Below, one piece after another: positions 15,001 to 29,760 of a stretch of 64,000 bases of DNA. A model generated the notes under the pieces. The model did no database searches. It was not told the DNA's origin and was given only the letters and a program-made list of their open reading frames with translations. Numbering within the stretch: the first letter of the stretch is position 1; each line of letters opens with the position of its first letter. This DNA comes from Candidatus Taenariivivens baikalensis (GTDB taxonomy: Bacteria; Omnitrophota; Omnitrophia; Omnitrophales; Aquincolibacteriaceae): NCBI GenBank assembly GCA_009691445.1, contig SICL01000007.1, positions 6,916 through 70,915 of the forward strand. The letters run 5' to 3'. A program made the translations under genes and the position numbers.

Positions 15001-16209
15001 CTCAGGACTGAAATGATGGGAAGGAGTAATCTCAAGAAATTGTTTACTGCCGGCGAAGCGCATCCCCGATGATTTTTTTCCCTCAACGCCATACTCGGGA
15101 TGTTCATGGGCAATTCCGCTATGGCCATATCCTGAACTATCGGAAAGAATACCGGCGCGTTCATCCAGATGCCAGGATCCGACCAATGCTTGCGGATTCC
15201 CAAAATGATTCATCGCCTGTGTTTCGCTCAAAGCCTTGGAATAAAACGCAACCTCATCAAGCACTCCGTCAAAAAAATTCTTCATTTTATTATCAATCAG
15301 AGCGCCCAGATAGAGAGGGATATTGGTTTGAAATACGGGACCCGTAAAAGTCACCGGCTGTGTGTCCAAAGCACCGTTCAAATAGACACGCAGCTCATTT
15401 CCCGTATAAACTCCCACCGCGTGGTACCAGTGTCCCGGACTCAGCACCGTCTCTCCCGTTACGCGAGTCGAGATTGAACCATCACGGGAGACCTGAAAAT
15501 CCAGTTTTCCTTCCGAAGAGATTTGGAGGGCAAAAGATTTCTGAGATCCGATCGTCTGCCAACGCGAGACGAGAGCCTGAACCTTGCCTTTCACCGGAGA
15601 AACAGGACGAATCCAGGACTCCACAGAAAAAGGCCCCTTGAAATTAAACGTGTCATAATCAGGAATAAAAACATGGCTTTTGACCCCATCAAAAAGACGG
15701 GCATAGTTGAATCCTGTTTGGCCGCTGACCATCTCAGTGTCATTGGTCTTAGCAACATTTTTCCCCACAGCATCCAGAATGTTGGTTCCGCTGGGTTCAT
15801 CCAGATGCCAAAGCGCCATAAGACCTGCGGTATCTTCGTCCACGGGAGCCGGAAGAAAATTTTCGGGGCTAGCTTCAGAGCTCTGCGGAATCAACTCAAG
15901 GGCTTCGTTTGTCGCCCAAGTATTTTCATCATAAGTTCCGAGATCGAAGGGAATACGGCCTTTATCCTTATAAAGTATTTTCTTTTTTAAGGAAGCCTGT
16001 TTTTCAGAAACCTGAATCTTCTGGGGATCAAAACGGTAATCTTCCTGATTCTCAAAACCCCATTTCCGGATCTGTGCATAGAGCGTGGAAGAAAAGGCCA
16101 AGGAAAGAAAAAAGATGACGGTCCATACGCCCAATAAATAAAACCCTCGGATACCGCGGGTTTTATGAGGTTCTTTGGGTTTCAAAAAAAACATTTTTTT
16201 GATGCTCAT
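1..16209 (-). CDS. Giant secreted/surface protein, N-terminal 5,403 codons (C-terminus beyond window edge): signal anchor + 4 LamG-like modules + >=44 tandem Kre9/KNH-like Ig-fold repeats
   Basis: The minus-strand frame with start ATG at rc(16207-16209), preceded by in-frame TGA at rc(16213-16215), is open for every codon down to position 1. The supplied ORF track omits it; it lists only scattered <=131-aa ORFs in other frames across 1-16200. My own translation gives N-terminus MSIKKMFFLKPKEPHKTRGIRGFYLLGVWTVIFFLSLAFSSTLYAQ (hydrophobic signal/anchor). The first ~1,100 aa carry four LamG/ConA-like signatures (ALWHLDEPSG, GSWHLDERAG, LYHLDEPSG, LWHFNEKN). The remainder is ~96-aa units of pattern SPxGGExWxVGxxxxIxWxTxGxIxxVxLEYSxDxFxxDxxxIxxxxxNxGxYxWxVPDxIxxxxKxRxSD repeated in tandem. 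Confidence 0.85.
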   Translation of the reverse strand, partial: MSIKKMFFLKPKEPHKTRGIRGFYLLGVWTVIFFLSLAFSSTLYAQIRKWGFENQEDYRFDPQKIQVSEKQASLKKKILYKDKGRIPFDLGTYDENTWATNEALELIPQSSEASPENFLPAPVDEDTAGLMALWHLDEPSGTNILDAVGKNVAKTNDTEMVSGQTGFNYARLFDGVKSHVFIPDYDTFNFKGPFSVESWIRPVSPVKGKVQALVSRWQTIGSQKSFALQISSEGKLDFQVSRDGSISTRVTGETVLSPGHWYHAVGVYTGNELRVYLNGALDTQPVTFTGPVFQTNIPLYLGALIDNKMKNFFDGVLDEVAFYSKALSETQAMNHFGNPQALVGSWHLDERAGILSDSSGYGHSGIAHEHPEYGVEGKKSSGMRFAGSKQFLEITPSHHFSPEGQLTLEMWVKPEKLPGKGEVMPLVSNFGGQADYSVSLVGPLGKMHAASSLLSPPDFTGQHALMPNEWHHVAVTWGQGRLSIYVDGVLDSSASYSGELRISEKSDLVIGTDSARSSWFQGVLDDVAIYRRVKNKYEIAADANLFPPSGIYVSKVKDAGSQSPWQTLSWQPLQSYGKQIQKEEKGMLHLYHLDEPSGSLFQDEMNETPANAMGTYAVPGVFSQARWFSKKGYDKIISQKTFPSLSTFTISLWFQFKSSEPQGVDRIFSVGDENPSLYRSAPDGRLHVVSTGARKIVSDVAILDSRWHHAALTSDGHSLFLYLDGDLSGSSPFVRATAAEPLIIGNLKSSDTFEGAVDEFAFFNYGLDKKTITDEYLSAKLDTKFLVRTSESESFTNSEWRGPQGPAASEIRPSESTVALWHFNEKNLQGSSNEVADDSRYANHGVAYGHGIASSEGVISRGIYLNGASDFIEVADSESLHLHDAFTLSAWIRPEEVEKESSRIIDKHYAGGAPIFSSFSLELLSGNRLGVRLGHEGGYHLESSDQDGQIGVGRWNYVAATWNGKEIRLYINGSLVKKASFHSPIFYDKGALYLGRYGSGAAGFFHGGIDEALIAAEALSDHEVANLFFKTNPENAYRGISPQKLEVAPGRYFQYLALLKTEDAAVGPTIKSVSVQGNDYSVDKPAIINNKSVSFAAISDFRERLGTHHKGMITYQISRDGSNWYYHNGRHWVVAASIAESNTAAQVAQRIYLFPSEVGIGSFYFKAFLHSPSGVEPVELESLELEYLPNKLTVTSPNGGEGWLVGSPQTLQWNSAGEVAAVNLEYSRDDFKKDFHSIVKDFKNAGSYKWTVPDTIDPMIKIRVMDALDPRIYDTSDITFRIMGAFEVSTPNYRERWEVGSKQDIIWKALGSMFEVKLDYSTDEFKNQIYPIVDSMKNEGTYHWTIPDHISKTAKVRISDVRDFKTMDISNDAFTIHGRLQVVYPEAHARFQVGSNQGIRWKTLGSIPAIKLQYAVKNEEGEQEWKKIENVYPNHGDYVWPVPDQIDQAVTIRVSDPNDDKVFSDSSKFIIMAAMEILNPKGGEYWTVGSRRKIAWKTTGTVSSVNLEYTSIDRAFQKDLQDGKLALDDKAFKWNLIEKGLTNIGSYAWVVPDSLTENAVIRVTDAGDPQAGALCRNPFRIIPGFVLQTPNGSEAWAIASEHDIEWETKGSMQEVRLEYSKDAFVKDAHTLIDRASNIGRFSWKLPDDASPKVWVRVSDPDTPQASDISDVPFRLYGTFEFSSPLGGEKYEVGTLASIQWETKGNIPQVKLEYSHDNFNKDARVIAPSILNHGQYTWTVPDDIGSGYYFRISDPRDPQAAVISDGVFSVVGKFYLLTPVGGENLVVGTVQNITWKGAGSVAFIRIDYSEDDFTKSFVTLAEATANNGIFKWEIPNKIGQGFKLRIWDPSHPESMYVMAHSSRIIGGFMLDSPNGGESLYVGEPFDVSWKTSGNVDRVKLDFSDDNFTKRIWEISDTVENLEKYLWKIPDMPAGLYKLRISDPRDSYSFDISNSDFRIRSRVTLMSPKGGEGWAVGEKHAIQWKTSGMISKVKIEYSTDDFKSSSTIAEAVPNTGVYEWTVPNYVAQSIKFRISDVSDPGARVVSTSTMKTQAILSLTTPRGGEVWHVGQTYPILWKSSGEVKGVKIEYSRDGFISEAKTIIPSTPNQGIYNWTVPDEISRHTKIRVMDLTDSQTQVMSKTPFQIAGSFQMMGPNGQEIWHALEKREISWVSVGTMPEVDLSFCAVQNDAKEECSNNHDDNRFVIDKGVVNSGRYVWDIPRLVGEKFKVKVCDSQNPEICDESDHPFALNSPFEIVYPRGAEIWPVGSDQEIRWHTYGNVARVLIQYATPASVDSITNGKKITWKTLAEGLDNQEYFLFKIPDDISKNVIFKLADWDDEELYSATSHPVMFAGTFTLLIPNGGEKWAAGATQKIVWDTLGSVPNARLEFSTDNFDHDVNVIESSYTNTGNYPWTLPPALGKAVTVRISDASNPKAFDLSDKPFKIMPGFVMISPDGNEVWKVGSKQKISWKTIGGTEKIRLQYATGLEWKNIVDRIANGGSFEWMVPNDVSKAAKVRVINDSDLDAWDASNAPFEIRPDIIVTSPNGEENFFVGQPAEIRWVSIGSVGALKMEYSKDGFVKDVHPIAQDVSDKSPFVWTPGDDITQSAVIRVISQKNDKVRDGSDHAFSILPKIQVLKPKAGDMWKVGSEHAVEWDWRGTLDKVNVEYSTNDFMTTSVIARDLPNTGKVSWTIPDQVNEKIRIRVMDAAHSASLGISPSFLKVVPGYGIIHPNGGEPWKVGQRETIQWKTFGTSPRVILQYGIFTDKGPVEWKDVTRPIQNKGEFSWEIPADVSSQVKMRVLDTQDSQAVQISEKPFKILAQFPTLSPKPSQNLFVADKFELKWKTLGNVPSVKLEFSAADENSRETNQFELIESDWANRGNYFWTVPDTINEAIRLKISDAREPDSFTLSEPFRIRGRLTGKISEGQINWPVGTAQTIFWKSVGSIEQVDLSYQLPEQNDWKVIIRGIPNTGSYGWKIPDDVAQKVKLRVADSNNSEVFDELKDKITIAARLEFKEPKAGEILEVGATQEISWNTFGKIQRAWLEYSANGGGWIPVAGPVPDSGSFEWTVPDAISSTARLRIRDGDNDAAFAISSNFQIRGGLSLTSPNGGEVWGVGNSQVIEWKTTGTIPKIKLEFLSSTLLGTGQQVRTVPNRVERQIFLIKDGVVNQNRFECVIPNRIANDVSVRVTDVRDPQVYSESKKPFSVIGTFRLISPQGSEVWIVGSSQSINWMTQGSVPKIRLEYSRDDFYRDINAIVTEAANTGMLTWKIPNMISDQVTLRILNAEDSRAQMTLTKPFKIAGALAMKLPGSNETWTVGELKELIWTTTGTIPQIRIEFSRDNFQKDVQVIENVWVNKNRYEWKVPDVISSSARFRVANANDAKIYALTNPLKIQGRIHLSSPQLGEALTVRGHCPIRWETTGTIPKVRLEYSRDNFRSDVQMIAPKAPNSGLWDWQIPDDVGAGVKVRATDLENAQVYGESEKPFKILAQFSLASPKPGQNLFVSDKFEMKWQTLGHVPSVKLEFSSTDQTGPELGKYELIESYWANHDNYFWTVPDKISETIRFKISDAQEPDSVFISEPFHIRGRLNGRISEGQINWPVGTSQTIFWKSVGSIAQVSLSYRLPEQKGWKPIARGIPNTGSYGWQIPDDVAKEIKIRISDSNNSEVLSELKEKITIAARFEFKEPKAGEISEVGSIKEIAWNTLGKIQRTWLEYSVGGENWAAIAGPVQDLGGFKWTVPDSISSTARLRIRDGDNNAAFAVSPNFQIRGRLDLVTPSGAEVWGVGQSQVIEWKTTGTIPQIKLEFLSSTLLGTGQQVRPVPNRVERQSFLIKEDAANQNRFEWFVPNQIADDIKVRISDARDPQVFSESKQPFSIIGTFGLISPKGDEVWGVGSTQPIAWISRGDIPKVHVEYSRDDFYRDINVIVTQTPNAGMLMWKIPDVIADHVTIRISDAEDPRAVTTSLKSFKITGALAVTLPTQNETWTVGEPRELTWTTTGTIPQVRIEFSRDDFQKDIQVIENRLANKNRYEWKVPDVISTSLKFRILNAKDAQVAAMSNPVKIQGRIQLTTLQSHEILTVLGHRELKWETMGTVPKVRIEYSRDNFHSDIHIIASNVLNTGLWDWQIPDDIGAGVKVRVMDEFNFSVADATPQSLDIQGALTLMEEVDQPRFVVGSKRNVMWNTTGTIPVVRLEYFKEDGVAHPVLIADALKNKGNFFWNVPDDISDRIRLRVSDIRTETIFGVSQTPIPIVGALSLLEPKAGVAAQVAARQAVRWSTVGTIPQIRLEYSVSDPAQDKEGNTLWNLVTGSVDNQGIFQWMVPNDISNTVRIRVSDARDPLVNSISGTPFAIQGGIQLFEPHGRERWIVDTKHEIVWNSVGTLPQVKIEYSRDQFQKDIHLIQDQVANTGHLMWTVPDDISDKVKIRVSSATDPRVASIHKDPISIMGDFVFLEPEGNPIWNVGSEQKIEWQTIGTVPQVKLEYMVSTKEAMTSQEFHTIQTGIPNQGSFLWTIPDKTNSKILIRVSDARDATVATLSQKQIKIIGSFKFHMPESAENWLVGETRKLQWDTLGTISRIDLEVSADNFQEKSIAIEKAGPNDNAYAWKVPDLIAKQVVVKIINSEDPSVFAVSDPFEIRGGLRVLQPAGNQTFQVGEKQTVEWKTVGSIPAVDLEFSTDQFVSDRRKIGTISSQSGHYDWIIPDAISDHLWMRVSDAKDSAVQSMTIKPFKISGHFELLNPKGGEIFFVEGHATLNWKTIGTIPSVHLEFSRDGFRQDRQTIIRDLKNEGLYEWLVPDAMSDQIWVRVVNAADASVVAGHEAPVKIQGKLALLKPAGEEIWKVGSEQSLQWKSVGSIAEVRLEYSNMDSSLPTTQRWTDPSSGGRGSEAIGAIYPEIASLLARNEKRRSEWLVIQDHLPNHGIYLWRLPDNLPSSIRVRVVDVSNSVVFSESASPVKIEGTLRMIFPDKKEKWQVGSKKEIVWESRGSIHQVKIEYSTDSFRHDSHVINSPDANSGRYLWEIPDLVTQELTVRISDAQNPDVQTLSPFPIAVVGRLRLETPQGGERWEAGSHQEISWATLGTIAQVNLEYSKDQFIRHRQPISQLLPNTGHYLWKVPDDISSSIWVRVADSMNLSVEMTSEQALTIAGSFFLKRPSAGQIWTVGNTETLEWDTNGGILRVRLEYSTDDFVSSTPMSAVTPNVGRYEWKIPDVVSNQLKVRVLDAQDDHVYATSASPVKIQGALNFISPVAQDFWVSGAEKAISWSTHGMIPYVTLEYSDDNFSHATPVIIGLANSGNYNWTVPDLATNEMQLRIMNAQDQSVLSLSPVFHIGGTLQLLSPAGGEIWKVGETQEIKWKTSGSIPKVKIDLSSDQFHRDIQTLTAAWDNAGAYSWTVPDMIRSQAQ
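4732..4780. repeat. Second, slightly degenerate copy of the same in-CDS palindrome (aaccctattgggaactg-N-ctgtccctaatagggtt) in duplication copy 2
   Basis: Read directly from the sequence; it sits at the homologous position 2,010 bp from the first copy. Confidence 0.7.
6742..6790. repeat. Perfect 17-bp inverted repeat with 15-nt spacer (aaccctattggggacag-N15-ctgtccccaatagggtt) embedded in-frame in the giant CDS
   Basis: Read directly from the sequence. It encodes LLGTGQQVRTVPNRVE and lengthens the LEYS-to-NxGxYxW segment of that Ig repeat by ~13 aa relative to neighbouring repeats. Confidence 0.75.
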
Positions 16210-16223: not shown

Positions 16224-17270
16224 TTATCGGACTTTTTGTTCTAATTCAAGCGCCAAAACATATCCTTCAACTTTCTTGGCATCCGGAGCCTTTGGATTCA
16301 CGGCGATATATCTCTGATAATGATAAAGCGATTTTTCGCGGTCCTTGAGAAAATCGTCGTAGAGAATGCCAAGATTGTAATGGGTGTCTGGATCATTCGG
16401 CATCAGCTCCAGTGCTTTTTCATACTCAGTGATCGCTTCTTTATACCGTTTATTTTGAAGAAAAACCGTGGCAAGATTGTAATGCATTTGAGCATTTTCT
16501 CTCATCATTTTTTGAGAAATACGACTCGCCCTGGCAAGACCCGGAACCGCATCTTTGAATTTGGCTTTCAAAATCTCAATCTGTTCGCGGTATTCCTTAT
16601 TTTCTTTGATCAAATTCTTCTGACGTATTTCCAGGGTCTGGATGTAAGAGGTTTTCTGCCGCAATTCTTTATTTTCCGCCACAATCTTGTGGAGCTCTTC
16701 TCTGTCCATTTCAAGCGGCGTCATCTGCCGTTTCATTTCCTCAAATTGTTTTTCATACTCGAATACCTTTTGTGCCATTTTTTTATTTTCTTCCTGCAGG
16801 CGGTTCCGATCCTCCAAGACCTGATTGATTTTTTCAGGCGTGTATTCCGTCATGATTTTAGCCAGTGAATCACTCCGGTCTTTTTCTTCCTTCAGCTTCC
16901 GTTCCAGATTTGTTTTCTCTTCCGCGGAAAGTTCCCGATCCTTAGAGCGAGCAGCTTTGATTTTCGCCAACTCTCCGCTCAAGATAGCATTCTCTTTTTT
17001 GAAAGATTCCAGTTCTACCCCTGCGCCACTCGTCAAATTCTTAAGTTGCTCAATTTTAGCCAGCAAATCCGCTTTCTCTTTTTGAAAAAAACGTGCTTGC
17101 TTCAAAATGTTATTGCGATCGGATTTTAGGTCCTCCAATTCTCGGGAAAGTTTTGCATTTTTCTGAGTCAGCTCCTTCACGGTCACCGCAGGATCGGCCT
17201 CAGTTCCAGCAAAACCAAGCGGCATCCATGCGGCCAGAAAGATCATCCATGCCATTCCAATTTTTTTCAT
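16224..17270 (-). CDS. Secreted coiled-coil protein with C-terminal TPR repeats (MshN-like by context)
   Basis: ORF 16224..17291. The likely start is internal MKKIGMAWMIFLAAWMPLGFAG (signal peptide) with GAGG 5 nt upstream. A long heptad-like K/E/L-rich stretch (KELTQKNAKLSRELEDLKSD...) is followed by TPR-like AQMHYNLATVFLQNKRYKEAITEYEKALELMPNDPDTHYNLGILY. The stop lies 14 bp upstream of the giant gene start. Confidence 0.6.
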   Translation of the reverse strand: MKKIGMAWMIFLAAWMPLGFAGTEADPAVTVKELTQKNAKLSRELEDLKSDRNNILKQARFFQKEKADLLAKIEQLKNLTSGAGVELESFKKENAILSGELAKIKAARSKDRELSAEEKTNLERKLKEEKDRSDSLAKIMTEYTPEKINQVLEDRNRLQEENKKMAQKVFEYEKQFEEMKRQMTPLEMDREELHKIVAENKELRQKTSYIQTLEIRQKNLIKENKEYREQIEILKAKFKDAVPGLARASRISQKMMRENAQMHYNLATVFLQNKRYKEAITEYEKALELMPNDPDTHYNLGILYDDFLKDREKSLYHYQRYIAVNPKAPDAKKVEGYVLALELEQKVR

Positions 17271-17316
17271 TTTTTCCTCAGCCTGTCCCACGTAATAACG
17301 AAAGTTAGTTAATTTT

Positions 17317-18930
17317 TTAATACGTTTTAAAGGGTTTTAGAGTCTTATCGGCAATCTGTCGATCGGTAAATGTCATATCACCCGAGACGACATTGGGCGT
17401 CAAAAAAATAACCAGCTCGATTTTTTCAAGCTGCTCGCTTGTATTTCGGAATAAGGCTCCCACAAGAGGAATGTCTCCAAGAATAGGCGTTTTCTTGACG
17501 GTTTTGACTTTCTCATTTTTTCGTAATCCTCCAATAATAATTGTCGTGCCATCTTTCACCATGACTGTTGTTTCAGATAAGGTCGTGTCGACAATGGGAA
17601 TCGCATTTTGAGTCGGCGTGATCAGGGTTCGTGCGACGCTGGAGATTTCCGGTTTTATTTTCATGGTCACGTAACCATCGTCATTAATGATGGGCGTCAC
17701 CTCCAGAGAAATCCCCACATCCACAAATGTCACATTCTCCGCGGTCGTAGACGTTGTTTGTCCGGTGGTGGTCGTCGTTGTCACAAAGGCCTCGCGTGTC
17801 CCGATCATAATACGGGCAGATTGTTTATTAATAACAGCCAAACGCGGACTCGCCAGCACCTTGGTCTGGCCGACCGTGCTCAGATAATCAATCGTGGCAC
17901 TGGTCTCATCCGTTGAGACATTTCCGATTTGTAAGCGTCCATAATTTGTCAGCGTCGGTTTGAAGGTCCCAGTCAAAATGGGCCGGTATTTCGCGACTCG
18001 AAAGGCATTGTCCGTATCTCTGAAAAGTCTTTGCCAGTTGATCCCCATATCAAAATCATCGCTCAAAGTGACTTTAACAATTTTCGCTTCGATCAACACT
18101 TCCCGCGTCTTTTCATCGAGGGCACGGACAATCCTCTCGATTTCATCCATGCGTTTGGGAAGCGCGGAAACCACCAAAGAATTACTGCGTTCATCCGCCT
18201 TGACCGTTCCCAGCTTTAAAGCATCCAACCTTTCTTTCAAACTGACTTCCACTTTTTCCGCCTCTGCGTACCTAAGCTGAAAAATCCGGAGATTCTGACC
18301 TTTCTCCATCTCATAAATAACCTTTTCCATTTCCTGGATTTTTTCCGGGAGATCCATCAAGATAAGTGTGGCTGAATCTTCATCCACGACCACTTTCCCA
18401 ATATCACTTTTGATGGCGCTTAAGACCGTAAAAATCTGATTCGGAACCGCATAACGAAGCTTAAACACTTTGGCGATGCGCAAATCTGAAAACCGTTTTC
18501 CGTATAGTGCCTGAAATTCAGTTTCGCTCATCACGTTATAAATTTCGCCCTGCTTGGCAATGGCAAGATTGTTACTCAGAAGGATGATTTCCAGAACATC
18601 CGCCACGGAAACATCGGTCAAATAAAGCGACACGCGGCCTGCCACGTTTTTTCCGATAACAAGATTAAGACTTCCCTTCATTGCCAGGAATTTTAGCGCT
18701 TCCGAGATTTCAATATTTCTCAGATCAAGCGTCACTCGTTCCTTAAGTCCTTCCGCCTTGGTATCGATCATAATCCGCGGAGGCGCAGTCGAAACCCCTT
18801 CCTGGGCTGAGGACCCGGGATGCTGAGCCATGGAAATTGGTGCCATGATCATCATGACAATTCCGAAAATCATGATGGCCCTGACAGACCGCCTGTCAGA
18901 ATTAAAAAAGCGATGCTTCTTCACCTTCAT
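17317..18930 (-). CDS. Secretin, GspD/MshL type (N0 + two secretin_N domains + secretin C-domain)
   Basis: 537 aa with a signal peptide (..MIFGIVMMIMAPISMAQ). Two secretin_N-like modules are present (VFKLRYAVPNQIFTVLSAIKSDIGKVVVDEDSATLILMDLPEKIQEMEKVI and IFQLRYAEAEKVEVSLKERLDALKLGTVKADERSNSLVVSALPKRMDEIERIV). The C-terminal secretin domain reads VLASPRLAVINKQSARIMIGTREAFV..TTTTTGQ...TVMVKDGTTIIIGGLRKNEKVKTVKKTPILGDIPLVGALFRNTSEQLEKIELVIFLTPNVV. Confidence 0.85.
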   Translation of the reverse strand: MKVKKHRFFNSDRRSVRAIMIFGIVMMIMAPISMAQHPGSSAQEGVSTAPPRIMIDTKAEGLKERVTLDLRNIEISEALKFLAMKGSLNLVIGKNVAGRVSLYLTDVSVADVLEIILLSNNLAIAKQGEIYNVMSETEFQALYGKRFSDLRIAKVFKLRYAVPNQIFTVLSAIKSDIGKVVVDEDSATLILMDLPEKIQEMEKVIYEMEKGQNLRIFQLRYAEAEKVEVSLKERLDALKLGTVKADERSNSLVVSALPKRMDEIERIVRALDEKTREVLIEAKIVKVTLSDDFDMGINWQRLFRDTDNAFRVAKYRPILTGTFKPTLTNYGRLQIGNVSTDETSATIDYLSTVGQTKVLASPRLAVINKQSARIMIGTREAFVTTTTTTGQTTSTTAENVTFVDVGISLEVTPIINDDGYVTMKIKPEISSVARTLITPTQNAIPIVDTTLSETTVMVKDGTTIIIGGLRKNEKVKTVKKTPILGDIPLVGALFRNTSEQLEKIELVIFLTPNVVSGDMTFTDRQIADKTLKPFKTY

Positions 18931-19621
18931 AAGTAACCGTCACCTTTTCTTTTTCAATGTTCTGAACTTTCAGGCCATTAATTTCCTGGCCCCGCTTTAA
19001 AAAATAAGTTTTCCCGCTCTCAGTTTGTTCGATCATGGCAAGCGGGCTCGTGTTTGTCCAAGAGATTCCCACCAATTTGATGCTCTGCATGATCTTGGCC
19101 ATCTTGTCACTTTTAGGCTGAGAAACAGAAAGGACTTCCGGCTTGGCTTCTTCTTTCTCCGCCAGCTTCCCTGTCATCAGCATAAAAGGATTTCTCCTCG
19201 CCATCATGTCATGATAGTACTTCACATCATGCTGGGCTTTTTCGCCCTTATCTCCTTCCCGCGAAGAAAAAGCCGAATCATTCAAGCTGACTTGGGACAG
19301 GAATTTTTTGGGATCCCCTTTTAAAATGGAAAGATCCAACGCAAGATAAATCCCGCACACCAAAACACCCGCAATCAAAAAAGCATTGACGCCCTTAATG
19401 TAAGCAAAAGGATTGGCATCTTCAACCGCGACTGAACTGCGCTTGGGTGCTTGATTCCTGGAAACGGAAAAAAGTTTTCCCCAAGGAATTCCCGGAAGAG
19501 AAAATTTTCGTTTCCCCGTTTTCGGAGTTCCCTTACCCTTCTGAGGGTTCTTGGAATCCAAACCCGGATTCTCAATCAATTTAAGTAATTGCTCTTCTGG
19601 AGTGGGTTTTGGCTGTACCAT
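18902..19621 (-). CDS. Bitopic inner-membrane protein with periplasmic beta-domain, GspC/PilP-like (putative secretin partner)
   Basis: 239 aa. It has a basic/proline-rich cytoplasmic N-region, a single TM helix (AFLIAGVLVCGIYLALDLSIL) and a C-terminal domain (IKLVGISWTNTSPLAMIEQTESGKTYFLKRGQEINGLKVQNIEKEKVTVTYEGEEASLF) that resembles the GspC HR / PilP secretin-binding fold. Its stop overlaps the secretin start by 29 nt. Confidence 0.4.
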   Translation of the reverse strand: MVQPKPTPEEQLLKLIENPGLDSKNPQKGKGTPKTGKRKFSLPGIPWGKLFSVSRNQAPKRSSVAVEDANPFAYIKGVNAFLIAGVLVCGIYLALDLSILKGDPKKFLSQVSLNDSAFSSREGDKGEKAQHDVKYYHDMMARRNPFMLMTGKLAEKEEAKPEVLSVSQPKSDKMAKIMQSIKLVGISWTNTSPLAMIEQTESGKTYFLKRGQEINGLKVQNIEKEKVTVTYEGEEASLF

Positions 19622-20445
19622 CCGGCACGCACATCCTGGTTCACAAGCTCTTCAATGTTGTTTGAGGTAATCACTTGCTGATTTTTCATTACCAGGCTCT
19701 TGAGAGCCCGGTGGCATAACATCGCAGTTTTCCGGGGATAACCACGGGCGGCCCGGTGAATTTCACGCACAGCCTCTTCCAGGAAAAGACGATAGCGTGA
19801 CTTAAAACCGGCCTGTCGCAAACGAAAATCAATCATTTCCCGGGTCTCTTCCTGATCCAGAGGCTCCAGAACGCACTTCAAACTTACGCGGTCGAGAAGA
19901 TTATGCATCTCTACCAACGTGGGCATGAGTTCCACCTGGGAAAGTAAAACGACCTGAATCAGCTTATAGGCATTTGTTTCGTAATTGAGCAGCATCCTTA
20001 AAATTTCAAGGCAGGACCGGTTCATTTTCTGGGCCTCATCGATAATGAGCACCACGGTCTGTTTTTCCTGGACTCCTTTTTGAAACAGGTAGCGTTCCAA
20101 GGCTTCTTTGTAATCCCAAAGAGTGGACTGAGGAACACTCAAATCAATACCGAAAGTCCGGATTAGATCTTGAAGAAATACCTGTTCATTAGGATAAGAA
20201 GGATCCAGAATTAAATGAAAAATAAATCCTTCCCGGTCACGAAGCATCTGAATCAATTTTCGCCCCAGGGTTGTCTTGCCGGTACCTACCTCCCCCAAAA
20301 CCACACTCAAACCTCTCTTGAGTCTTAGATCGATCATCAGATTAGCGAGAACCGCTTTGTGATTTCTCGACTCATAAAAATAGAGGGGGTCCGGACTCGT
20401 TGAAAAAGGCTCATCGTCCAAGCCAAGCACCCGGTAGTAACTCAT
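19576..20445 (-). CDS. ExeA/GspA/MshM-like AAA ATPase (AAA_22)
   Basis: The likely start is MSYYRVLGLDDEPFSTSPDPLYFYESRNHKAVLANLMIDLRLKRGLSVVLGEVGTGKTTLGRKL with a perfect AAGGAG 7 nt upstream (rc of 20446-20460). It has a Walker A GEVGTGKTT and Walker B VVLIIDEAQ. There is no C-terminal peptidoglycan-binding extension. Confidence 0.8.
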   Translation of the reverse strand: MSYYRVLGLDDEPFSTSPDPLYFYESRNHKAVLANLMIDLRLKRGLSVVLGEVGTGKTTLGRKLIQMLRDREGFIFHLILDPSYPNEQVFLQDLIRTFGIDLSVPQSTLWDYKEALERYLFQKGVQEKQTVVLIIDEAQKMNRSCLEILRMLLNYETNAYKLIQVVLLSQVELMPTLVEMHNLLDRVSLKCVLEPLDQEETREMIDFRLRQAGFKSRYRLFLEEAVREIHRAARGYPRKTAMLCHRALKSLVMKNQQVITSNNIEELVNQDVRAGWYSQNPLQKSNYLN

Positions 20446-20587
20446 CCGAATTCTCCTTAAAAATCGTCTCAAAACACAGCTTTTACGTCTTTGTAAAAAT
20501 CGGCAGTCTGTCAGGAGAACTTGAGACAAGTTACTGAAAAAAAAGCACTTACAACATTTTTGGGGGGAAGGAAAATAGGGAAGCTGG

Positions 20588-22399
20588 TTAGATTTTGATC
20601 ACGACGTAGACTAAAATCAGAATAACGGTCAGGATCAATAAAATAGAAATAACATGCTGCATAAATTCAGAGCTTACTTTCTTTTTTTCTGATTCGGCAG
20701 TACTGGCAGGTTGCGTCGAAGCAAAACGGCTTGCCGTGTAAGATCCTTCCGCCTGAGTTTCTTTTTTAACAGGTCCTGAAACATGGATAAATTGAGATTG
20801 GCTTAAATCCACCAAAGAAGTCCGCCTCAGTTTTTTCCCGTTTTCATCGTATTCGATCTGGATCACGGGACTTAAGGGATATTGACGGTTTTGCCTCACA
20901 ACCCGGCCAACTTGTTTATTGCTCAACTCCACATAACTCATCACAGGGTAAAGTCCCACGCGAACCATCAAGGACTTAAGCACAAGACGATCATAAATGC
21001 CACGCCCTGTGTCAATCAGCTGTTTCATGGCGTCATTGACTTCCAGTGGTTTTTTTCGATAGGGCCGCTCATGAATCAAGGCCTCGAAACTGTCGATCAC
21101 GTGAATGATTTTGGCAAAGATGTGAATATCCTGATCCATGAGTCCCTTGGGATATCCTTTCCCGTTACCGATCTCATGGTGATGCATAATAGCCTCCAGA
21201 GCCGTTGTGCTCAAAATATCTTTCAGCATCTCGGCTCCCTTTAAAGGATGATCGAGAATCTCCTTTTCCAGTTGAGGCGTAAGCTTTTTAGGATAATTCA
21301 AGTCTTCACGCACTTTCACAAGCCCCATATCATGCAGAAAGGCTGCCAGCCCAAGGTCCATCATTTCTTCTCGGGAAAAGGAAAATTCAAGGGCAAGAAT
21401 CAGTGCCAGAACCGCCGTATTGACCGCATGATAAGTAAAATGGTTATCTACCGGATAAGGTTCCAGGGCAAGGCGCATAGATTCAAGATCCCGCTTCTGA
21501 ATTAAATCCAGAAACGAATTTAAAATTTCTTTCAGCGGATCCAGGTCCGGAATCCTTCCTTGAGCGGACTGTGCAAAAAGAGGCTCTCCGATAGCTACCA
21601 ATTGATCCCGAAGACTTATTGCCAATGCCTCAGCCTGGGGATCTGCCTGAAGTGCAACTTCAGGGATTGTTTCATCTATTTTTTCAATGGGTTTTAATCC
21701 CGAGAAGGATGGAGGAGGGATCTTTGAGGGCAACTCATTCCGCGCGGGAGGCGCTGGAGAAGAAACGTCCCTTAAAAGCACGGCGACTTCTTCCCTGGAT
21801 TCATCCTTCTTAATCGGAGGCGGAGGCGTCACGAGCTGATCCGAAGGTTGGCTTAACGCCCGCAGGGAGTTTCTTGCGTCGTTCAACTCTTTTTCCCGGA
21901 GATCCAAAAGTTTCTGGAATCCTTGCAAGGTCTGTTTATCTTTCAGGCCTTCAATCTCAAGCGTTTCTTTTATCTTGGCTCTTTCCGCTTCAAAGGCCGC
22001 TGATAAAACTGACTCCATTTGTTTTTTGTATTCGGAAAGCTCCCTGGATCTCTCCTGACGAAGTTTTTCCTGTTCCTGATCAGCTGCCTGTTTCATAAGC
22101 TGTAAACTTTTTTCCTGATCAGCTGATTTCTTTTTCTCTGATTCAAGCCCCTGATGAAAACGGGATTCGAGTTCCTGTCGGGTCTTATCCATTTCCCGCT
22201 GAAACTGCGCCTCCAATTCCTGACGGATTCGCTTCTCAATCAATGTCGCTTCCACCACAAGGGAAAAAGACTCGTCTTGCGATGAACGGAGTTTGGGCTT
22301 GTCTTCTTGTTTTCCAATGATCTTTTCTTCGGGAATAATCTTGGGAACCGGGGGGCTTACATCGACTTTGGGAGCTGCTAAAAAATCAGAAAATCTCAT
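20588..22399 (-). CDS. HD-GYP domain phosphodiesterase-like protein with N-terminal coiled-coil/Pro-rich region and C-terminal TM anchor
   Basis: The HD motif is FLHDMGLVKV and the GYP motif is HHHEIGNGKGYPKGL (N in place of the usual D of HHExxDGxGYP). The extreme C-terminus ISILLILTVILILVYVVIKI is a single predicted TM. The likely start is MRFSDFLAAPK with AAGGA 6 nt upstream. The gene sits between two ExeA-like ATPase genes. Confidence 0.75.
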   Translation of the reverse strand: MRFSDFLAAPKVDVSPPVPKIIPEEKIIGKQEDKPKLRSSQDESFSLVVEATLIEKRIRQELEAQFQREMDKTRQELESRFHQGLESEKKKSADQEKSLQLMKQAADQEQEKLRQERSRELSEYKKQMESVLSAAFEAERAKIKETLEIEGLKDKQTLQGFQKLLDLREKELNDARNSLRALSQPSDQLVTPPPPIKKDESREEVAVLLRDVSSPAPPARNELPSKIPPPSFSGLKPIEKIDETIPEVALQADPQAEALAISLRDQLVAIGEPLFAQSAQGRIPDLDPLKEILNSFLDLIQKRDLESMRLALEPYPVDNHFTYHAVNTAVLALILALEFSFSREEMMDLGLAAFLHDMGLVKVREDLNYPKKLTPQLEKEILDHPLKGAEMLKDILSTTALEAIMHHHEIGNGKGYPKGLMDQDIHIFAKIIHVIDSFEALIHERPYRKKPLEVNDAMKQLIDTGRGIYDRLVLKSLMVRVGLYPVMSYVELSNKQVGRVVRQNRQYPLSPVIQIEYDENGKKLRRTSLVDLSQSQFIHVSGPVKKETQAEGSYTASRFASTQPASTAESEKKKVSSEFMQHVISILLILTVILILVYVVIKI

Positions 22400-22409
22400 T
22401 CCGATCCTT

Positions 22410-23216
22410 TTAAACCGTTTGAGGATCCATAAGCACCTCATTGATAATTTGGGTCGTAATCACCGAAGCCTTCATCCCAAATCCCGTTAAAAGCGCCAAG
22501 TCACAAACCTGATTAATACGCCGGGGAAGTCCTCCCGTAGATTCGTGAATCGTCTTGAAGGAATCTTCGGAAAAAATAGCACGGCTTACTCCCGCCACTT
22601 TCACCCGGTGGAGAATATATTTTTGAGTCTCATCCAGCTTTAGCCCTTTCAAATGAAACCGCACGGCAACCCTTTGATCAAAGGGTTTAAGGTTGGAAAT
22701 TTTTTCCCGGAGTTCCGGCTGTCCCGCCAGAATCAACGTCAGAAGAAATTTATCCCTTTTTTGAAAATTAAGCAGCAATCTTAGTTCCTCAAAAATAGCC
22801 CGGTCCTCAATCAAATGCGCTTCATCCACAATCACAACCACGTGACGGCCTTCGGCATAGTTATCATTAAGAATTTCAGTAAGGCGATGCAGAAGATCAG
22901 TTTTTTGATCTGAAAGATGGTCATGGACTCCCAATTGATAAACGATTTCCTTGAGAAGCTCCACACTGCTTAGCTGGGGATTGAAAATAAAGGCCGTTGT
23001 GTATTTATCACTCTTCAAGACATCAAGGAGGGCTTGAGCGATAAGAGTTTTCCCGGAACCGAAAATACCGGTGAGGACGGCGCATCCCAAGTGAGACTCA
23101 ACCACGTATTTAAGACGCGTCAACGCCTCTTCGTGCTGCTCCGAATAGCACAAAAAACGCGGATCACACGTATTCTGAAACGGTTTTTCTTTGAGACCCC
23201 AGTATTCAAGATACAT
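22410..23216 (-). CDS. ExeA/GspA/MshM-like AAA ATPase, second copy
   Basis: N-terminus MYLEYWGLKEKPFQNTCDPRFLCYSEQHEEALTRLKYVVESHLGCAVLTGIFGSGKTLIAQAL. Walker B is VVVIVDEAH. 268 aa, ATPase domain only. Confidence 0.8.
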   Translation of the reverse strand: MYLEYWGLKEKPFQNTCDPRFLCYSEQHEEALTRLKYVVESHLGCAVLTGIFGSGKTLIAQALLDVLKSDKYTTAFIFNPQLSSVELLKEIVYQLGVHDHLSDQKTDLLHRLTEILNDNYAEGRHVVVIVDEAHLIEDRAIFEELRLLLNFQKRDKFLLTLILAGQPELREKISNLKPFDQRVAVRFHLKGLKLDETQKYILHRVKVAGVSRAIFSEDSFKTIHESTGGLPRRINQVCDLALLTGFGMKASVITTQIINEVLMDPQTV

Positions 23217-23275
23217 AATGTTTAAGTATTATCAGCCTCTAAGAACGATTGTCAATCCCTTCATCCAACAAAACC

Positions 23276-24419: not shown

Positions 24420-25125
24420 AAATTCACCTTCTTCCTGCCGAGAAGGATATCGAGACTTTCTCCCCCGTAATTGAAAAGCAAATCGATAGCAGACAGGTTT
24501 GGAACAAACTCTCCGAACTGCTGGTGATAAACGGGATGATCAAATTCCTGGTAAAGAGAGCGGATCTTCCGCGCGGAAAATTTCGTTTCATCCGCGTAAT
24601 CTTTCCCGTGTTTTCCATGAAGATATTGATCCGCGCCTGTCTTCTCACACATATCCAGAATGAGTTCGTCCCCTTTGCCTGAGGCGCCGATTTCCGAAGC
24701 CTTTTTGACAGGTCGGTCAATCCCAAAAGACTTCAGCAGATAAAGAATAAAATGGCAGCTCAAATCACAAAAATTTTCCCAAGAACGTTTCATGTACATC
24801 TCTTCAAAAAAATCCGCGTATTTATAAAAATAGGGCGTCTTTCCGTAATTCACAAGAAGACTCTTCCAATGCTTACGGCCCCAGGGAAGCTCAGGATTAA
24901 TCAAAGTCTCCATAATTTTTTGCTCAAACTTGCCTTTAACCAAAACAGGCACTGAAAGCCATTGGGGACCGGTTGCGGTCTTGATGCGGTTACGACTCAC
25001 CCAACCAAACGGTCCTCGCTTCACATACTGGACATTGTCAACGATGACGAAGAGATCCGAATGATAAACCTTGTGAAAAAAACCCAAGTAGGGGAGATAG
25101 TTAGGCTGATGTCCGGTGAGGATCA
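24416..25125 (-). CDS. WbqC-like family protein (polysaccharide biosynthesis)
   Basis: The family start motif is MILTGHQPNYLPYLGFFHKV. The longer ORF-track N-terminus (MCHCVIAIAASPPRLGTRNDKPNG...) is a read-through translation of repeat R2 and is rejected. Confidence 0.65.
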
Positions 25126-25213
25126 TAGTTTTATTCGACCAAGTATCACTGTTTTGTCGGTTGAGATTGCCGCGTCGTCCTGAGGGACTCCTCGCCATGA
25201 CACCGTTTGGTTT

Positions 25214-25268
25214 GTCATTGCGAGTCCCGAGCCTTGGCGGAGACGCGGCAATCGCAATGACACAATGA
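25214..25268. repeat. Nested palindromic intergenic repeat, short copy R2 (GTCATTGCGAGTCCCGAGCCTTGGCGGAGACGCGGCAATCGCAATGAC) followed by ACAATGAC duplication
   Basis: Read directly from the sequence. It shares the GGCGGAGACGCGGCAATC box with copy R3b. Confidence 0.75.
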
Positions 25269-25295
25269 CACAATGAACCCGCCTATTTTCATATT

Positions 25296-29739: not shown

Positions 29740-29760
29740 TGTAAACCTCCGCTCACCCAC

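What the first reader, a model, noticed from the sequence alone, without database searches (positions are those of the whole stretch)
16224..23216. Orphan secretin module (MshN-like TPR, GspD-type secretin, GspC/PilP-like protein, two ExeA/MshM-like ATPases) co-directional with and immediately upstream of the giant adhesin gene: candidate dedicated giant-protein export/display system
Minus-strand order: ExeA-like ATPase 2, HD-GYP, ExeA-like ATPase 1 (AAGGAG RBS), a bitopic GspC/PilP-like protein, a secretin with N0 + 2x secretin_N + C-domain, and a signal-peptide coiled-coil/TPR protein. The giant gene follows after only 14 bp. The parts resemble the MshK/L/M/N subset of MSHA-type pilus loci and the ExeAB-GspD secretin-assembly axis. 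No pilin, prepilin peptidase, GspE/PilB/PilT ATPase or GspF/PilC platform gene is present anywhere in the 64 kb. The next upstream genes are glycosyltransferases. A secretin channel with its assembly and gating accessories but no pseudopilus machinery, transcriptionally coupled to a >5,400-aa Sec-signal protein, is not a described secretion pathway. It may be a minimal secretin-dependent route for outer-membrane translocation or anchoring of the giant protein.
Basis: inference. Interest (0 to 1): 0.8.

Follow-up and report, generated by a model that had tools for sequence, protein, structure and literature searches.

The report
Detached T2SS secretin module beside giant adhesin
In this Omnitrophota genome the outer-membrane half of a type II secretion-like machine (secretin and its helper proteins) has been separated from the rest of the machine and sits directly upstream of a giant lectin/Ig-repeat surface protein, probably its cargo; this is a rearranged known system, not a new secretion pathway.

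Summary
No GspE/F/L/M or pseudopilin gene lies in the 64 kb.

The "undescribed secretin-only pathway" reading does not hold. In related Omnitrophota (L028, L013, L088), homologues of the same genes end a complete type II secretion-like operon: GspE-GspF-pseudopilins-GspK-PilM/N fusion-GspM-ATPase-HR protein-secretin, plus the TPR protein in L028 and L013. One relative has an equally detached module (L055). Its genome carries a secretin-less GspE-F-L-M-G-J operon on another contig (L087). The window's own genome could not be searched.

The linkage to giants is real. All six independent loci of the window's lineage keep the module-giant order. Across the wider secretin clade, 15 of 21 loci have a co-directional ORF of at least 900 aa within 8 kb downstream.

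Best reading: a detached secretin subcomplex of the phylum's T2SS-like machine, relocated next to probable cargo. This is a new variant of a known kind. Links between giant genes and secretion loci in Omnitrophota are already published.

The parts
22410..23216 (-). ATPase 2: short cytoplasmic ExeA/GspA/MshM-type AAA+ ATPase (268 aa), first gene of the unit
   Evidence: AAA_22 at 80 bits. TIGR03015 at 218.7 bits, below its 324.5 cut-off. It is 28% identical to ATPase 1 and Walker A and B are intact. In relatives it is paired with the HD-GYP gene (L024, L071, L062).
20588..22441 (-). HD-GYP-type phosphodiesterase-like protein (617 aa) with a coiled-coil N-terminus and a C-terminal TM tail
   Evidence: HD_5 at 83 bits and HD at 49 bits. 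HD, HHHE and GYP residues are visible in the translation. It is conserved next to ATPase 2 in the lineage and in other group-Y loci.
19576..20445 (-). ATPase 1: ExeA/GspA-type AAA+ ATPase (289 aa from ATG 20445)
   Evidence: AAA_22 at 70 bits and TIGR03015 at 178 bits, below cut-off. AAGGAG lies 8 nt upstream of ATG 20445. Its homologues directly precede the HR protein and secretin in detached modules and in complete T2SS-like operons.
18902..19621 (-). Bitopic inner-membrane protein with a GspC/GspB/PilP-type HR domain (239 aa). It overlaps ATPase 1 by 46 nt and the secretin by 29 nt.
   Evidence: A family profile of 43 sequences hits PilP 3jc8 (E = 2e-6) and GspC HR 3oss_C (E = 8e-6), and also 7oio and 6hcg OutC. 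Pfam T2SSC is matched by 34 of 43 members and T2SSB by 12 of 43. A nearly invariant cytoplasmic N-terminal motif TPEExLLxLI is present.
17317..18930 (-). Secretin (537 aa): signal peptide, N0, two N domains, secretin barrel. No AMIN domain and no S domain.
   Evidence: Pfam Secretin at 156 bits and Secretin_N in two stretches. The AF2 model has pLDDT 74 and gives the domain boundaries. Best Foldseek hits are PulD, GspD and ExeD. The sequence is 100% identical to MSR77221.1, annotated 'GspD', from a Ca. Omnitrophota MAG.
16224..17291 (-). Periplasmic coiled-coil + TPR protein (348-355 aa); the constant downstream partner of this secretin clade
   Evidence: TPR_11, TPR_1 and TPR_2 hits at residues 267-340, and SMC-like coiled-coil hits. 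It follows the secretin in most group-Y loci, including complete operons L028 and L013. It is duplicated together with the secretin in tandem arrays.
1..16209 (-). 5' part (more than 5,400 codons) of a giant secreted protein: Sec signal peptide, four Laminin_G_3 lectin-like domains, then Kre9_KNH-type Ig-like repeats. It runs off the window.
   Evidence: Open frame. Laminin_G_3 at 332 bits in 4 stretches; Kre9_KNH at 135 and 179 bits. Orthologues of 5,402 and 6,941 aa occupy the same position in L005 and L002.
23228..23255 (-). Promoter-like site upstream of ATPase 2
   Evidence: TTGACA-16-GATAAT, 11 of 12 matches, the best site in 15.5-33 kb. This is a consensus match only.
26059..27966 (-). 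HExxH metallopeptidase-like + TPR protein (635 aa), conserved directly upstream of ATPase 2 in relatives that lack the sugar-gene insertion
   Evidence: Reprolysin_5 (weak) plus many TPR families. It holds the same position in L002, L005, L007 and L009. Peptidase_MA_2/TPR genes also sit inside or beside other T2SS-like loci (L089, L006).
28210..32400 (-). Lineage-conserved upstream block: PLD-like 516 aa, unknown 326 aa, unknown 234 aa, and two TIGR04073-family small secreted proteins (137 and 133 aa)
   Evidence: The order is the same in L002, L005, L007 and L009. TIGR04073 scores 60.1 bits (above the 50 cut-off) and 48.7 bits. PLDc_2 appears in precomputed Pfam hits. Whether the block belongs functionally to the module is unknown.
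23352..26054 (-). WecA-like GT4, WbqC-like and PIG-L deacetylase genes: an insertion between the TPR-peptidase gene and ATPase 2, not part of the conserved module
   Evidence: Pfam hits. The insertion is present only in the window and L008 and absent in L002, L005, L007 and L009. Short repeats flank it.

Best explanation
The module is the secretin subcomplex of the Omnitrophota type II secretion-like (type IV filament superfamily) machine. It consists of:
- a GspA/ExeA-type ATPase;
- a GspB/GspC/PilP-type HR-domain inner-membrane protein that docks on the secretin N0 domain;
- the GspD-type secretin;
- a clade-specific periplasmic coiled-coil/TPR partner;
- a second ExeA-like ATPase paired with an HD-GYP protein.

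In this lineage these genes have been split from the inner-membrane platform and pseudopilin genes (GspE, F, G-K, L-like PilMN, M). Those are presumably encoded elsewhere in the genome. The module now sits immediately upstream of a giant Sec-exported lectin/Ig-repeat protein and is probably co-transcribed with it.

Proposed mechanism (inferred, not shown):
1. The giant protein crosses the inner membrane by Sec.
2. Its small domains fold in the periplasm as beads on a string.
3. It is passed through, or displayed via, the secretin by the pseudopilus machine.
4. The ATPase/HR pair assembles the secretin and couples it to the inner membrane. This is inferred from ExeAB/GspAB and GspC biology.
5. 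The HD-GYP/ATPase 2 pair supplies c-di-GMP-linked control.

Shown here: homology of the parts, their place at the end of complete operons in relatives, a split arrangement in a relative, and the conserved adjacency to giants. Inferred: presence of the platform genes in this genome, and the cargo relationship.
For: 1. Homologues of ATPase, HR protein, secretin and TPR protein end a complete operon in L028. The order is GspE (T2SSE, 440 bits), GspF, N_methyl pseudopilins (GspI-like), GspK-like, a PilM+PilN fusion, GspM/PilO-like, then the four genes. L013 shows the same. L088 shows the same as far as the secretin, where its contig ends.
2. These three complete operons fall in the window's secretin clade, 'group Y' (NJ tree). 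The L088 secretin is 49-52% identical to detached-module secretins L030, L029 and L055. Detachment is therefore derived and has happened more than once.
3. GCA_001805465.1 has a detached module, s80-ATPase-HR-SEC-SEC-TPR followed by a 1,606+ aa secreted protein, amid housekeeping genes (L055). It also has a secretin-less atp-GspE-F-PilMN-M-G-pp-J operon on another contig (L087). GCA_041643015.1 likewise has an E-to-M operon without a secretin.
4. The HR-domain identity of the bitopic protein is supported by PDB and Pfam profile hits. An HR-type linker protein implies an inner-membrane partner.
5. The module-giant order is conserved in all 6 independent loci of the lineage at 69-78% secretin identity.
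6. In group Y, 15 of 21 loci have a co-directional ORF of at least 900 aa within 8 kb downstream, against 4 of 23 upstream. Almost all of these have Sec-like N-termini. Those in L004, L013 and L015 use the same Ig-repeat type as the window giant. In L013 such a giant follows a complete operon.
7. The literature reports this T4aP/T2SS-like system in most Omnitrophota classes, co-located with an F-type ATPase (PMC10066038). That co-location is seen in L087-L089. T2SS-like loci upstream of giant genes are also reported (bioRxiv 10.1101/2023.11.21.568195; 10.64898/2026.06.07.730766).
Against: - The platform and pseudopilin genes were not found for the window's own genome. None lies in the 64 kb or about 7 kb beyond it. 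The rest of the MAG could not be searched; the accession-based attempt failed.
- Group-Y modules are mostly detached: platform or pseudopilin genes appear in only 3 of 18 loci with at least 8 kb upstream. They are also enriched for large downstream ORFs. This would also fit a specialised paralogous function.
- No T2SS substrate of this size is known (own knowledge), and cargo status is untested.
- The C-terminus of the giant, and so any anchor or alternative secretion signal, was not seen.
- The secretin scores below the NCBIfam cut-offs for GspD, PilQ and MshL alike. T2SS versus T4aP assignment is therefore not settled; Seymour et al. call the system T4aP.
Confidence: 0.62

Rival explanations
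1. Autonomous secretin-only export or display system. The secretin with its ExeA-like ATPases, HR protein and TPR partner translocates or anchors the giant protein without any pseudopilus or GspE/F engine.
For: - No GspE/F/pseudopilin gene lies in the window or about 7 kb beyond it.
- Most group-Y modules are detached from platform genes: only 3 of 18 loci hold any.
- The module is tightly coupled to the giant gene in 6 of 6 lineage loci.
- The secretin + TPR unit is duplicated in tandem in several genomes, suggesting specialisation.
Against: - Homologues of the same genes end complete T2SS-like operons in three members of the same clade.
- A genome with a detached module has a secretin-less E-to-J operon elsewhere.
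- An HR-domain linker protein makes little sense without an inner-membrane platform.
- No energy source for outer-membrane translocation is evident. The ExeA-type ATPases are cytoplasmic and, in known systems, act in secretin assembly (own knowledge).
Confidence: 0.08
2. The secretin module serves a pilus-forming T4aP-like machine, as the system is annotated in Seymour et al. 2023. The giant protein is not its cargo. Adjacency reflects co-regulation of two host-attachment factors, and the giant reaches the surface by another route.
For: - TXSScan-based annotation as T4aP in PMC10066038.
- PilM/PilN and PilO-type hits in the operons.
- The HR profile hits PilP slightly better than GspC.
- The secretin scores marginally higher for PilQ than for GspD in NCBIfam (250 against 240 bits).
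Against: - The operons contain GspG (T2SSG), GspI/J-like and GspK-like pseudopilins and a fused PilMN (GspL-like topology). No PilT was detected by the GspE-family profile and Walker-A motif scans or in the called genes.
- The secretin lacks AMIN domains, and its best structural matches are T2SS secretins.
- No alternative outer-membrane route for the giant (T5SS barrel, T1SS genes) is visible in the available sequence. The C-terminus, however, is unseen.
Confidence: 0.2
3. The module belongs to an exopolysaccharide or PEP-CTERM-type surface-assembly system, because the ATPases resemble the XrtA/PEP-CTERM-associated ATPase and sugar-transfer, TIGR04073 and EPS genes lie nearby.
For: - The best NCBIfam hit of both ATPases is TIGR03015 (178 and 219 bits).
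- Two TIGR04073 'exosortase system-associated' genes lie upstream.
- WecA/WbqC/PIG-L genes are adjacent.
- A Wza/Wzc/EpsL-like/Wzy_C locus lies at 38-48 kb.
Against: - The TIGR03015 scores are below the 324.5 cut-off.
- No exosortase was found in the window.
- The sugar genes are an insertion absent from 4 of 6 lineage loci.
- The ATPase-HR-secretin trio is consistently part of T2SS-like operons across the phylum.
- The EPS locus has its own Wza-type exporter.
Confidence: 0.05

Closest known systems
Type II secretion system with GspA/GspB (ExeA/ExeB) secretin-assembly factors, as in Aeromonas Exe and Vibrio Eps
   Same: - A GspD-type secretin with N0 and N domains.
- An HR-domain bitopic inner-membrane protein encoded next to the secretin and overlapping an ExeA-type AAA+ ATPase gene.
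- In relatives the full set is present: GspE, F, G, I/J-like, K, an L-like protein and M.
   Different: - The ATPase is the short cytoplasmic form, without the TM segment and peptidoglycan-binding domain of ExeA.
- A single HR protein seems to stand in for both GspB and GspC, and it has no PDZ domain.
- The secretin has two rather than three N domains after N0 and no S domain.
- There is an extra coiled-coil/TPR partner and an ATPase 2/HD-GYP pair.
- All NCBIfam equivalog cut-offs are missed.
Split or dispersed T2SS gene sets and orphan secretins (Legionella lsp genes in several loci; P. aeruginosa orphan secretin XqhA working with the Xcp machine) - from own knowledge, not tested here
   Same: Secretin genes are encoded away from the platform genes yet function with them. 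The pair L055 + L087 in one Omnitrophota genome shows the same layout.
   Different: Here the detached piece keeps its ATPase, HR protein and TPR partner. It is also consistently placed in front of giant secreted proteins.
Omnitrophota 'T4aP' / F-type ATPase loci (Seymour et al. 2023, PMC10066038)
   Same: This is the same gene system. The atp operon is followed by GspE/PilB, GspF/PilC, PilMN and so on (L087-L089). The window's trio is the terminal part of that operon type.
   Different: In the window's lineage the secretin part is detached and linked to a giant gene. As far as I read it, that paper does not describe the ATPase-HR-secretin-TPR sub-module or its linkage to giants.
T2SS/Tad-like loci upstream of giant genes in Omnitrophota (West-Roberts et al. 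2023, bioRxiv 10.1101/2023.11.21.568195; 2026 preprint 10.64898/2026.06.07.730766)
   Same: A secretion or pilus locus containing a secretin lies immediately upstream of, and co-directional with, a giant gene in the same phylum.
   Different: Those loci have more than 10 subunits, including gspE, gspF, rcpC and a PPIase (Tad-like). Their giants are 30,000-147,000 aa, multi-TM and often lack signal peptides. Here only the secretin sub-module is present, and the giant is a 5,400-7,000 aa Sec-signal lectin/Ig-repeat protein with no TM segment detected beyond the signal peptide in the first ~3,000 residues of its orthologues.
MSHA pilus MshK-L-M-N subset
   Same: A secretin, an ExeA-like short ATPase (MshM type) and a TPR protein are encoded together.
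   Different: The gene order differs. MshL scores 200 bits, below the 250 cut-off. No specific MshN similarity was found. The complete operons in relatives carry GspK/GspM-type genes rather than MSHA genes.

Membership tests
Secretin superfamily (PF00263 + PF03958) | C-terminal secretin barrel domain plus N-terminal Secretin_N ring domains and a signal peptide | tested here: met
   Secretin at 156.5 bits (cut-off 27.5) and Secretin_N at 76.7 bits in 2 stretches. The AF2 model shows N0 + 2 N domains + barrel. Foldseek gives E = 1e-25 to PulD/GspD/ExeD.
T2SS secretin GspD (TIGR02517 equivalog) | Score at or above the curated cut-off; N0-N1-N2-N3 architecture | tested here: not met
   240.1 bits against a cut-off of 351.35. 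Only two N domains follow N0, and there is no S domain.
T4aP secretin PilQ (TIGR02515) | Score at or above the cut-off; N-terminal AMIN domains | tested here: not met
   250.2 bits against a cut-off of 284.35. No AMIN domain appears in Pfam or in the model.
MSHA secretin MshL (TIGR02519) | Score at or above the cut-off | tested here: not met
   200.4 bits against a cut-off of 250.2.
GspC / GspB / PilP HR-domain proteins | Bitopic inner-membrane protein with a periplasmic HR beta-domain that binds secretin N0 | tested here: met
   The family profile hits PilP 3jc8 (E = 2e-6), GspC HR 3oss_C (E = 8e-6), and 7oio and 6hcg OutC. T2SSC is matched by 34 of 43 members and T2SSB by 12 of 43. The window protein alone is sub-threshold (16.8 bits against 27). 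Binding to N0 was not tested.
Canonical GspC | HR domain followed by a PDZ or coiled-coil domain | tested here: not met
   There is no PDZ hit, and the protein ends with the HR domain.
ExeA/GspA | AAA+ (AAA_22) cytoplasmic domain, TM segment and periplasmic peptidoglycan-binding domain | tested here: not met
   AAA_22 is present in both ATPases (70 and 80 bits). The proteins are 289 and 268 aa with no TM segment or PG_binding domain. They resemble the short MshM/TIGR03015 form.
XrtA/PEP-CTERM-associated ATPase (TIGR03015) | Score at or above the cut-off; exosortase locus context | tested here: not met
   178.2 and 218.7 bits against a cut-off of 324.5. No exosortase was found in the window.
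Complete T2SS (system level) | GspE ATPase, GspF platform, GspL/M, major and minor pseudopilins and a prepilin peptidase in the same genome | not testable with these tools
   These genes are absent from the 64-kb window and about 7 kb beyond it. They are present contiguously with homologous modules in L028, L013 and L088, and separately in GCA_001805465.1.
HD-GYP c-di-GMP phosphodiesterase | HD_5/HD domain with HD and GYP signature residues | tested here: met
   HD_5 at 83 bits (cut-off 27.2). 'FLHDMG' and 'HHHEIGNGKGYP' are visible in the translation. Activity was not tested.
MshN / pilotin-type TPR proteins (PilF/PilW/Tgl) | TPR protein (a lipoprotein in the case of pilotins) required for secretin assembly | tested here: inconclusive
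   Only partial TPR matches were found: Tgl at 38 bits against 225, and PilW at 31 against 154. It has a signal peptide without a lipobox, and about 200 residues are coiled coil. It co-occurs consistently with group-Y secretins.

The most novel reading that the evidence does not exclude
The detached secretin + coiled-coil/TPR modules of this Omnitrophota clade are specialised conduits dedicated to giant Sec-exported Ig-repeat adhesins. This would be a T2SS-derived pathway that threads, and perhaps retains at the surface, proteins of 5,000-7,000 residues, far larger than any known T2SS substrate. In its strongest form the module would work without the pseudopilus engine. I put that sub-case at about 0.07.
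Probability: 0.25. Interest if true: 0.7.

Novelty: new variant of a known kind. Interest (0 to 1): 0.35.

Why it matters
Omnitrophota are ultra-small, probably predatory or parasitic bacteria whose giant surface proteins are thought to mediate host attachment. How such proteins cross the outer membrane is unknown.

This locus type gives a concrete, testable candidate route. The secretin arm of the phylum's T2SS-like machine is repeatedly relocated next to giant or large Sec-signal proteins. If the cargo relationship holds, it would extend the size range of T2SS substrates by an order of magnitude. It would also explain why secretion loci flank giant genes in this phylum.

If it does not hold, the locus is simply an example of a split T2SS gene set. 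Such sets are already known from other bacteria.

Tried and rejected
1. Locating GspE of the window's own MAG. I searched with the L028 GspE and compared NCBI accessions. The window secretin is MSR77221.1, and none of nine candidate GspEs shares that accession block. The GspE family is too uniformly conserved (about 52-55% identity) to pick out the right one.
2. Retrieving the full-length giant or its C-terminus by homology search. There was no self hit, only fragments and distant Kre9-repeat proteins. Orthologues are over 5,000 aa and cannot be looked up by exact sequence.
3. Extending the contig beyond the window. The 910-aa FG-GAP protein is not on record. The response-regulator look-up showed only a histidine kinase, IleRS and DUF2283 beyond the end.
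4. c-di-GMP control through the MshEN domain of GspE. The canonical c-di-GMP-binding motif is absent from all 12 Omnitrophota GspEs checked, so I dropped this link. The HD-GYP role remains unexplained.
5. The PEP-CTERM/exosortase reading. TIGR03015 scores are below cut-off, and no exosortase is in the window.
6. PDB search with ATPase 1 gave only remote ORC1 AAA+ hits.
7. No tandem DNA repeats in the giant gene. The protein repeats are diverged.
8. Terminator-like and promoter-like site counts are not above shuffles. Only the single strong promoter-like site is noted.
9. A weak PilM-like (Amuc_1101) hit of the 326-aa protein (E = 0.0018) was judged to be chance.

Full report
**1. Observation**

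The window's minus strand between 16224 and 23216 carries six ORFs.

- 22410-23216: a 268-aa AAA_22 ATPase.
- 20588-22441: a 617-aa protein with an HD_5/HD-GYP domain. The HD, HHHE and GYP residues are visible. It has a coiled-coil N-terminus and a C-terminal TM helix.
- 19576-20529: a second AAA_22 ATPase.
- 18902-19621: a 239-aa bitopic protein.
- 17317-18930: a 537-aa secretin.
- 16224-17291: a 355-aa protein with a signal peptide, a coiled coil and C-terminal TPRs.

A frame open for more than 5,400 codons runs from ATG 16209 off the start of the window. It encodes a Sec signal peptide, four Laminin_G_3 domains and many Kre9_KNH Ig-like repeats.

Small corrections apply.

- ATPase 1 starts at ATG 20445, which has AAGGAG 8 nt upstream, giving 289 aa.
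- The giant may start at 16194, making the gap 29 bp.
- 'MshN-like' rests only on generic TPR similarity.

No GspE, GspF, GspK, GspL/PilMN, GspM or pseudopilin homologue exists in the 64 kb. This was tested with jackhmmer seeded from two complete Omnitrophota operons and with motif scans. It was also covered by Pfam/NCBIfam scans of about 40 ORFs. About 7 kb beyond the window end holds only a histidine kinase, IleRS and a DUF2283 gene. The strongest sigma-70-like site in the region lies just upstream of ATPase 2. Gene overlaps and short gaps continue to the giant gene, so one transcription unit is plausible.

**2. Source and literature**

The secretin is 100% identical to MSR77221.1 from a Candidatus Omnitrophota MAG. 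Three papers bear on the locus.

- Seymour et al. 2023 (PMC10066038) report a 'T4aP' gene cluster in most Omnitrophota classes. It usually lies within 10 kb of an F-type ATPase operon. They also report giant ORFs, some with laminin_G_3 domains.
- West-Roberts et al. [quoted passage not shown]
- A 2026 preprint (10.64898/2026.06.07.730766) finds secretion or pilus flanks at 13 of 14 giants.

The general link between giant genes and type-IV-filament-type secretion loci in this phylum is therefore published. Those loci are larger and Tad-like, and their giants are a different class (30,000-147,000 aa, multi-TM).

**3. Comparative anatomy**

I fetched 80 loci from species-representative genomes with a secretin profile, plus several loci by exact-protein look-up. 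I mapped their ORFs with phmmer and jackhmmer.

*The window's lineage.* These loci have 69-78% secretin identity: L002/L003, L005, L007, L008 and L009. All keep one order:

- two TIGR04073 genes
- two unknown genes
- a PLD-like gene
- the metallopeptidase/TPR gene
- ATPase 2
- HD-GYP
- ATPase 1
- HR protein
- secretin
- TPR protein
- the giant (5,402 aa in L005, 6,941 aa in L002)

The WecA/WbqC/PIG-L genes next to the module in the window are an insertion. Only L008 shares it.

*More distant Omnitrophota.* At 38-48% identity, homologues of the ATPase-HR-secretin trio are the last genes of a complete operon. For L028, Pfam and NCBIfam give this order:

- GspE (T2SSE, 440 bits)
- GspF
- N-methyl pseudopilins (GspI-like)
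- a GspK-like minor pseudopilin
- a PilM+PilN fusion (GspL-like topology)
- a GspM/PilO-like protein
- the ATPase
- the HR protein
- the secretin
- the same coiled-coil/TPR protein

L013 shows the same. So does L088, as far as the secretin, where its contig ends. L087-L089 show the F-type ATPase operon directly upstream. This identifies the system with Seymour's 'T4aP'.

By composition it is closer to a T2SS than to a T4aP.

- It has G, I/J and K-type pseudopilins.
- It has an HR-domain protein.
- PilMN is fused.
- No PilT is present.
- The secretin has no AMIN domains.
- The best structural matches of an AF2 model (pLDDT 74) are PulD, GspD and ExeD.

Even so, the secretin misses the curated cut-offs of GspD, PilQ and MshL alike.

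**4. The bitopic protein**

A 43-member family profile hits PilP (3jc8, E = 2e-6) and the GspC HR domain (3oss_C, E = 8e-6) in the PDB. Pfam T2SSC is matched by 34 of 43 members and T2SSB by 12 of 43. The protein also carries a nearly invariant cytoplasmic N-terminal motif, and its gene overlaps the ATPase gene. I read it as a GspB/GspC-type linker working with the ExeA-type ATPase. That reading is an inference from ExeAB/GspAB and GspC biology.

**5. Is the module orphan?**

An NJ tree of 85 secretins separates two clades.

| Clade | Typical context | Loci (≥8 kb upstream) with platform or pseudopilin genes |
|---|---|---|
| X | Almost always inside complete operons; no TPR partner | 15 of 17 |
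| Y (holds the window's lineage) | Secretin followed by the TPR partner; mostly detached | 3 of 18 |

Three members of clade Y have the full contiguous operon: L028, L013 and L088. The L088 secretin is 49-52% identical to the detached ones in L030, L029 and L055. Detachment is therefore derived and recurrent.

The most direct test comes from genome GCA_001805465.1.

- L055 is a clean detached module: a small HTH gene, ATPase, HR protein, two secretins, the TPR protein, then a 1,606+ aa secreted protein. Housekeeping genes lie upstream.
- Contig MHGH01000014.1 of the same genome carries atp-GspE-GspF-PilMN-GspM-GspG-pseudopilin-GspJ and then unrelated genes, with no secretin.

GCA_041643015.1 also has an E-to-M operon without a secretin. 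For the window's own MAG I could not search the other contigs.

**6. Coupling to giants**

| Clade | Loci with a co-directional ORF ≥900 aa within 8 kb downstream | ≥1,500 aa downstream | ORF ≥900 aa upstream |
|---|---|---|---|
| Y | 15 of 21 | 10 of 21 | 4 of 23 |
| X | 5 of 17 | 1 of 17 | 2 of 20 |

Four of the five clade-X cases are SMC or an RND pump. The clade-Y proteins almost all have Sec-type N-termini. Those in L004, L013 and L015 are built of the same Ig-repeat type as the window's giant, at 22-29% identity over 400-1,800 residues. In L013 such a giant follows a complete operon. The association is therefore with the T2SS-like machine's secretin arm, not with a machine that lacks a pseudopilus.

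**7. Mechanism proposed**

*Shown:* the module is homologous to the secretin subcomplex of a T2SS-like machine, and it is conserved next to giant Sec-signal proteins.

*Inferred:*

- The platform and pseudopilus genes are elsewhere in this genome.
- The giant is exported by Sec, folds domain by domain, and is expelled or displayed through the secretin.
- ATPase 1 and the HR protein assemble the secretin and couple it to the inner membrane.
- The coiled-coil/TPR protein is a clade-specific secretin partner. It duplicates together with the secretin in L015, L018, L024, L026, L045 and L071.
- ATPase 2 and HD-GYP are regulatory. The pair also accompanies modules in L024, L071 and L062.

A tempting link to c-di-GMP binding by the GspE MshEN domain failed. 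The binding motif is absent in all 12 Omnitrophota GspEs checked.

**8. Rivals**

- *Autonomous secretin-only export:* about 0.08.
- *A T4aP pilus secretin merely co-regulated with an adhesin:* about 0.2.
- *An EPS/PEP-CTERM role:* about 0.05. TIGR03015-like ATPases, TIGR04073 genes and nearby sugar/EPS genes suggest it. However, the scores are below cut-off, no exosortase is present, and the sugar genes are an insertion.

**9. Verdict**

This is a new variant of a known kind. A detached GspA/B-C/D(+TPR) secretin sub-module of the Omnitrophota T2SS-like system has been repeatedly relocated in front of giant or large secreted proteins. It is of moderate interest as a lead to how Omnitrophota giants cross the outer membrane.

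Noticed in passing
window 23312-23338, 25162-25253, 27932-28086: Short GC-rich repeats (27-43 nt, core GTCATTGCGAG...GCGGCAATC, in direct and inverted copies) lie in intergenic spots. They sit around the WecA/WbqC/PIG-L insertion and the TPR-peptidase gene. They may mark rearrangement points.
   Followed up: partly
L015, L018, L024, L026, L045, L055, L071 (about 10-15 kb in each locus): Several Omnitrophota carry two secretin genes in tandem, each followed by its own coiled-coil/TPR gene. The first TPR gene is sometimes 730-1,250 aa. In some of these loci (L024, L071; HD-GYP without a detected ATPase 2 in L026) an ATPase 2/HD-GYP pair lies downstream. The reason for two secretins is unknown.
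   Followed up: partly
L087, L088, L089 (about 4-10 kb in each locus): An F-type ATP synthase operon sits directly upstream of GspE in three loci, as Seymour et al. reported for 'symbiotic' ATPase/T4aP loci. In L087 and L088 a response-regulator GGDEF gene precedes the atp genes.
   Followed up: partly
window 26059-27966; L089 12941-13768; L006 6663-7772: HExxH metallopeptidase-like (Reprolysin_5 / Peptidase_MA_2) proteins, often fused to TPRs, recur inside or beside the T2SS-like loci. In L089 one lies between GspF and GspG. They may be an unrecognised accessory of this system.
   Followed up: no
window 31589-32400: Two paralogous small secreted proteins belong to the TIGR04073 'exosortase system-associated' family (60.1 and 48.7 bits; cut-off 50). 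No exosortase is in the window. The pair is conserved upstream of the module in the lineage.
   Followed up: partly
window 38060-50296: A separate exopolysaccharide-type locus. It holds a Wzc-like tyrosine autokinase, a Wza-like exporter, an EpsL-like outer-membrane protein (weak), a TPR protein, a divergent HAMP-GGDEF gene, a Wzy_C protein and a CPBP/Rce1-like protease with weak similarity to MrtS-type sorting proteases.
   Followed up: no
many class-I loci (e.g. L051, L074 8157-8399; L055 6573-6815): An 80-aa gene directly precedes the ExeA-like ATPase in many Omnitrophota operons and in the detached L055 module. From its sequence it looks to me like a MerR-type helix-turn-helix protein; I ran no family search on it. 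No homologue is in the window.
   Followed up: no
L028, L036-L074 GspE genes: Omnitrophota GspE proteins have an MshEN-type N-terminal domain but lack the canonical c-di-GMP-binding motif (0 of 12). Two outgroup GspEs (L078, L081) have it.
   Followed up: yes
window 50810-55104 and 56200-57616: Futalosine-pathway menaquinone genes (MqnC-like radical SAM, VitK2_biosynth, UbiA, flavoprotein, UbiE-type methyltransferase), then lgt and lspA. Further along are a 910-aa FG-GAP protein, a second HD-GYP gene, a response regulator and a GAF histidine kinase.
   Followed up: no
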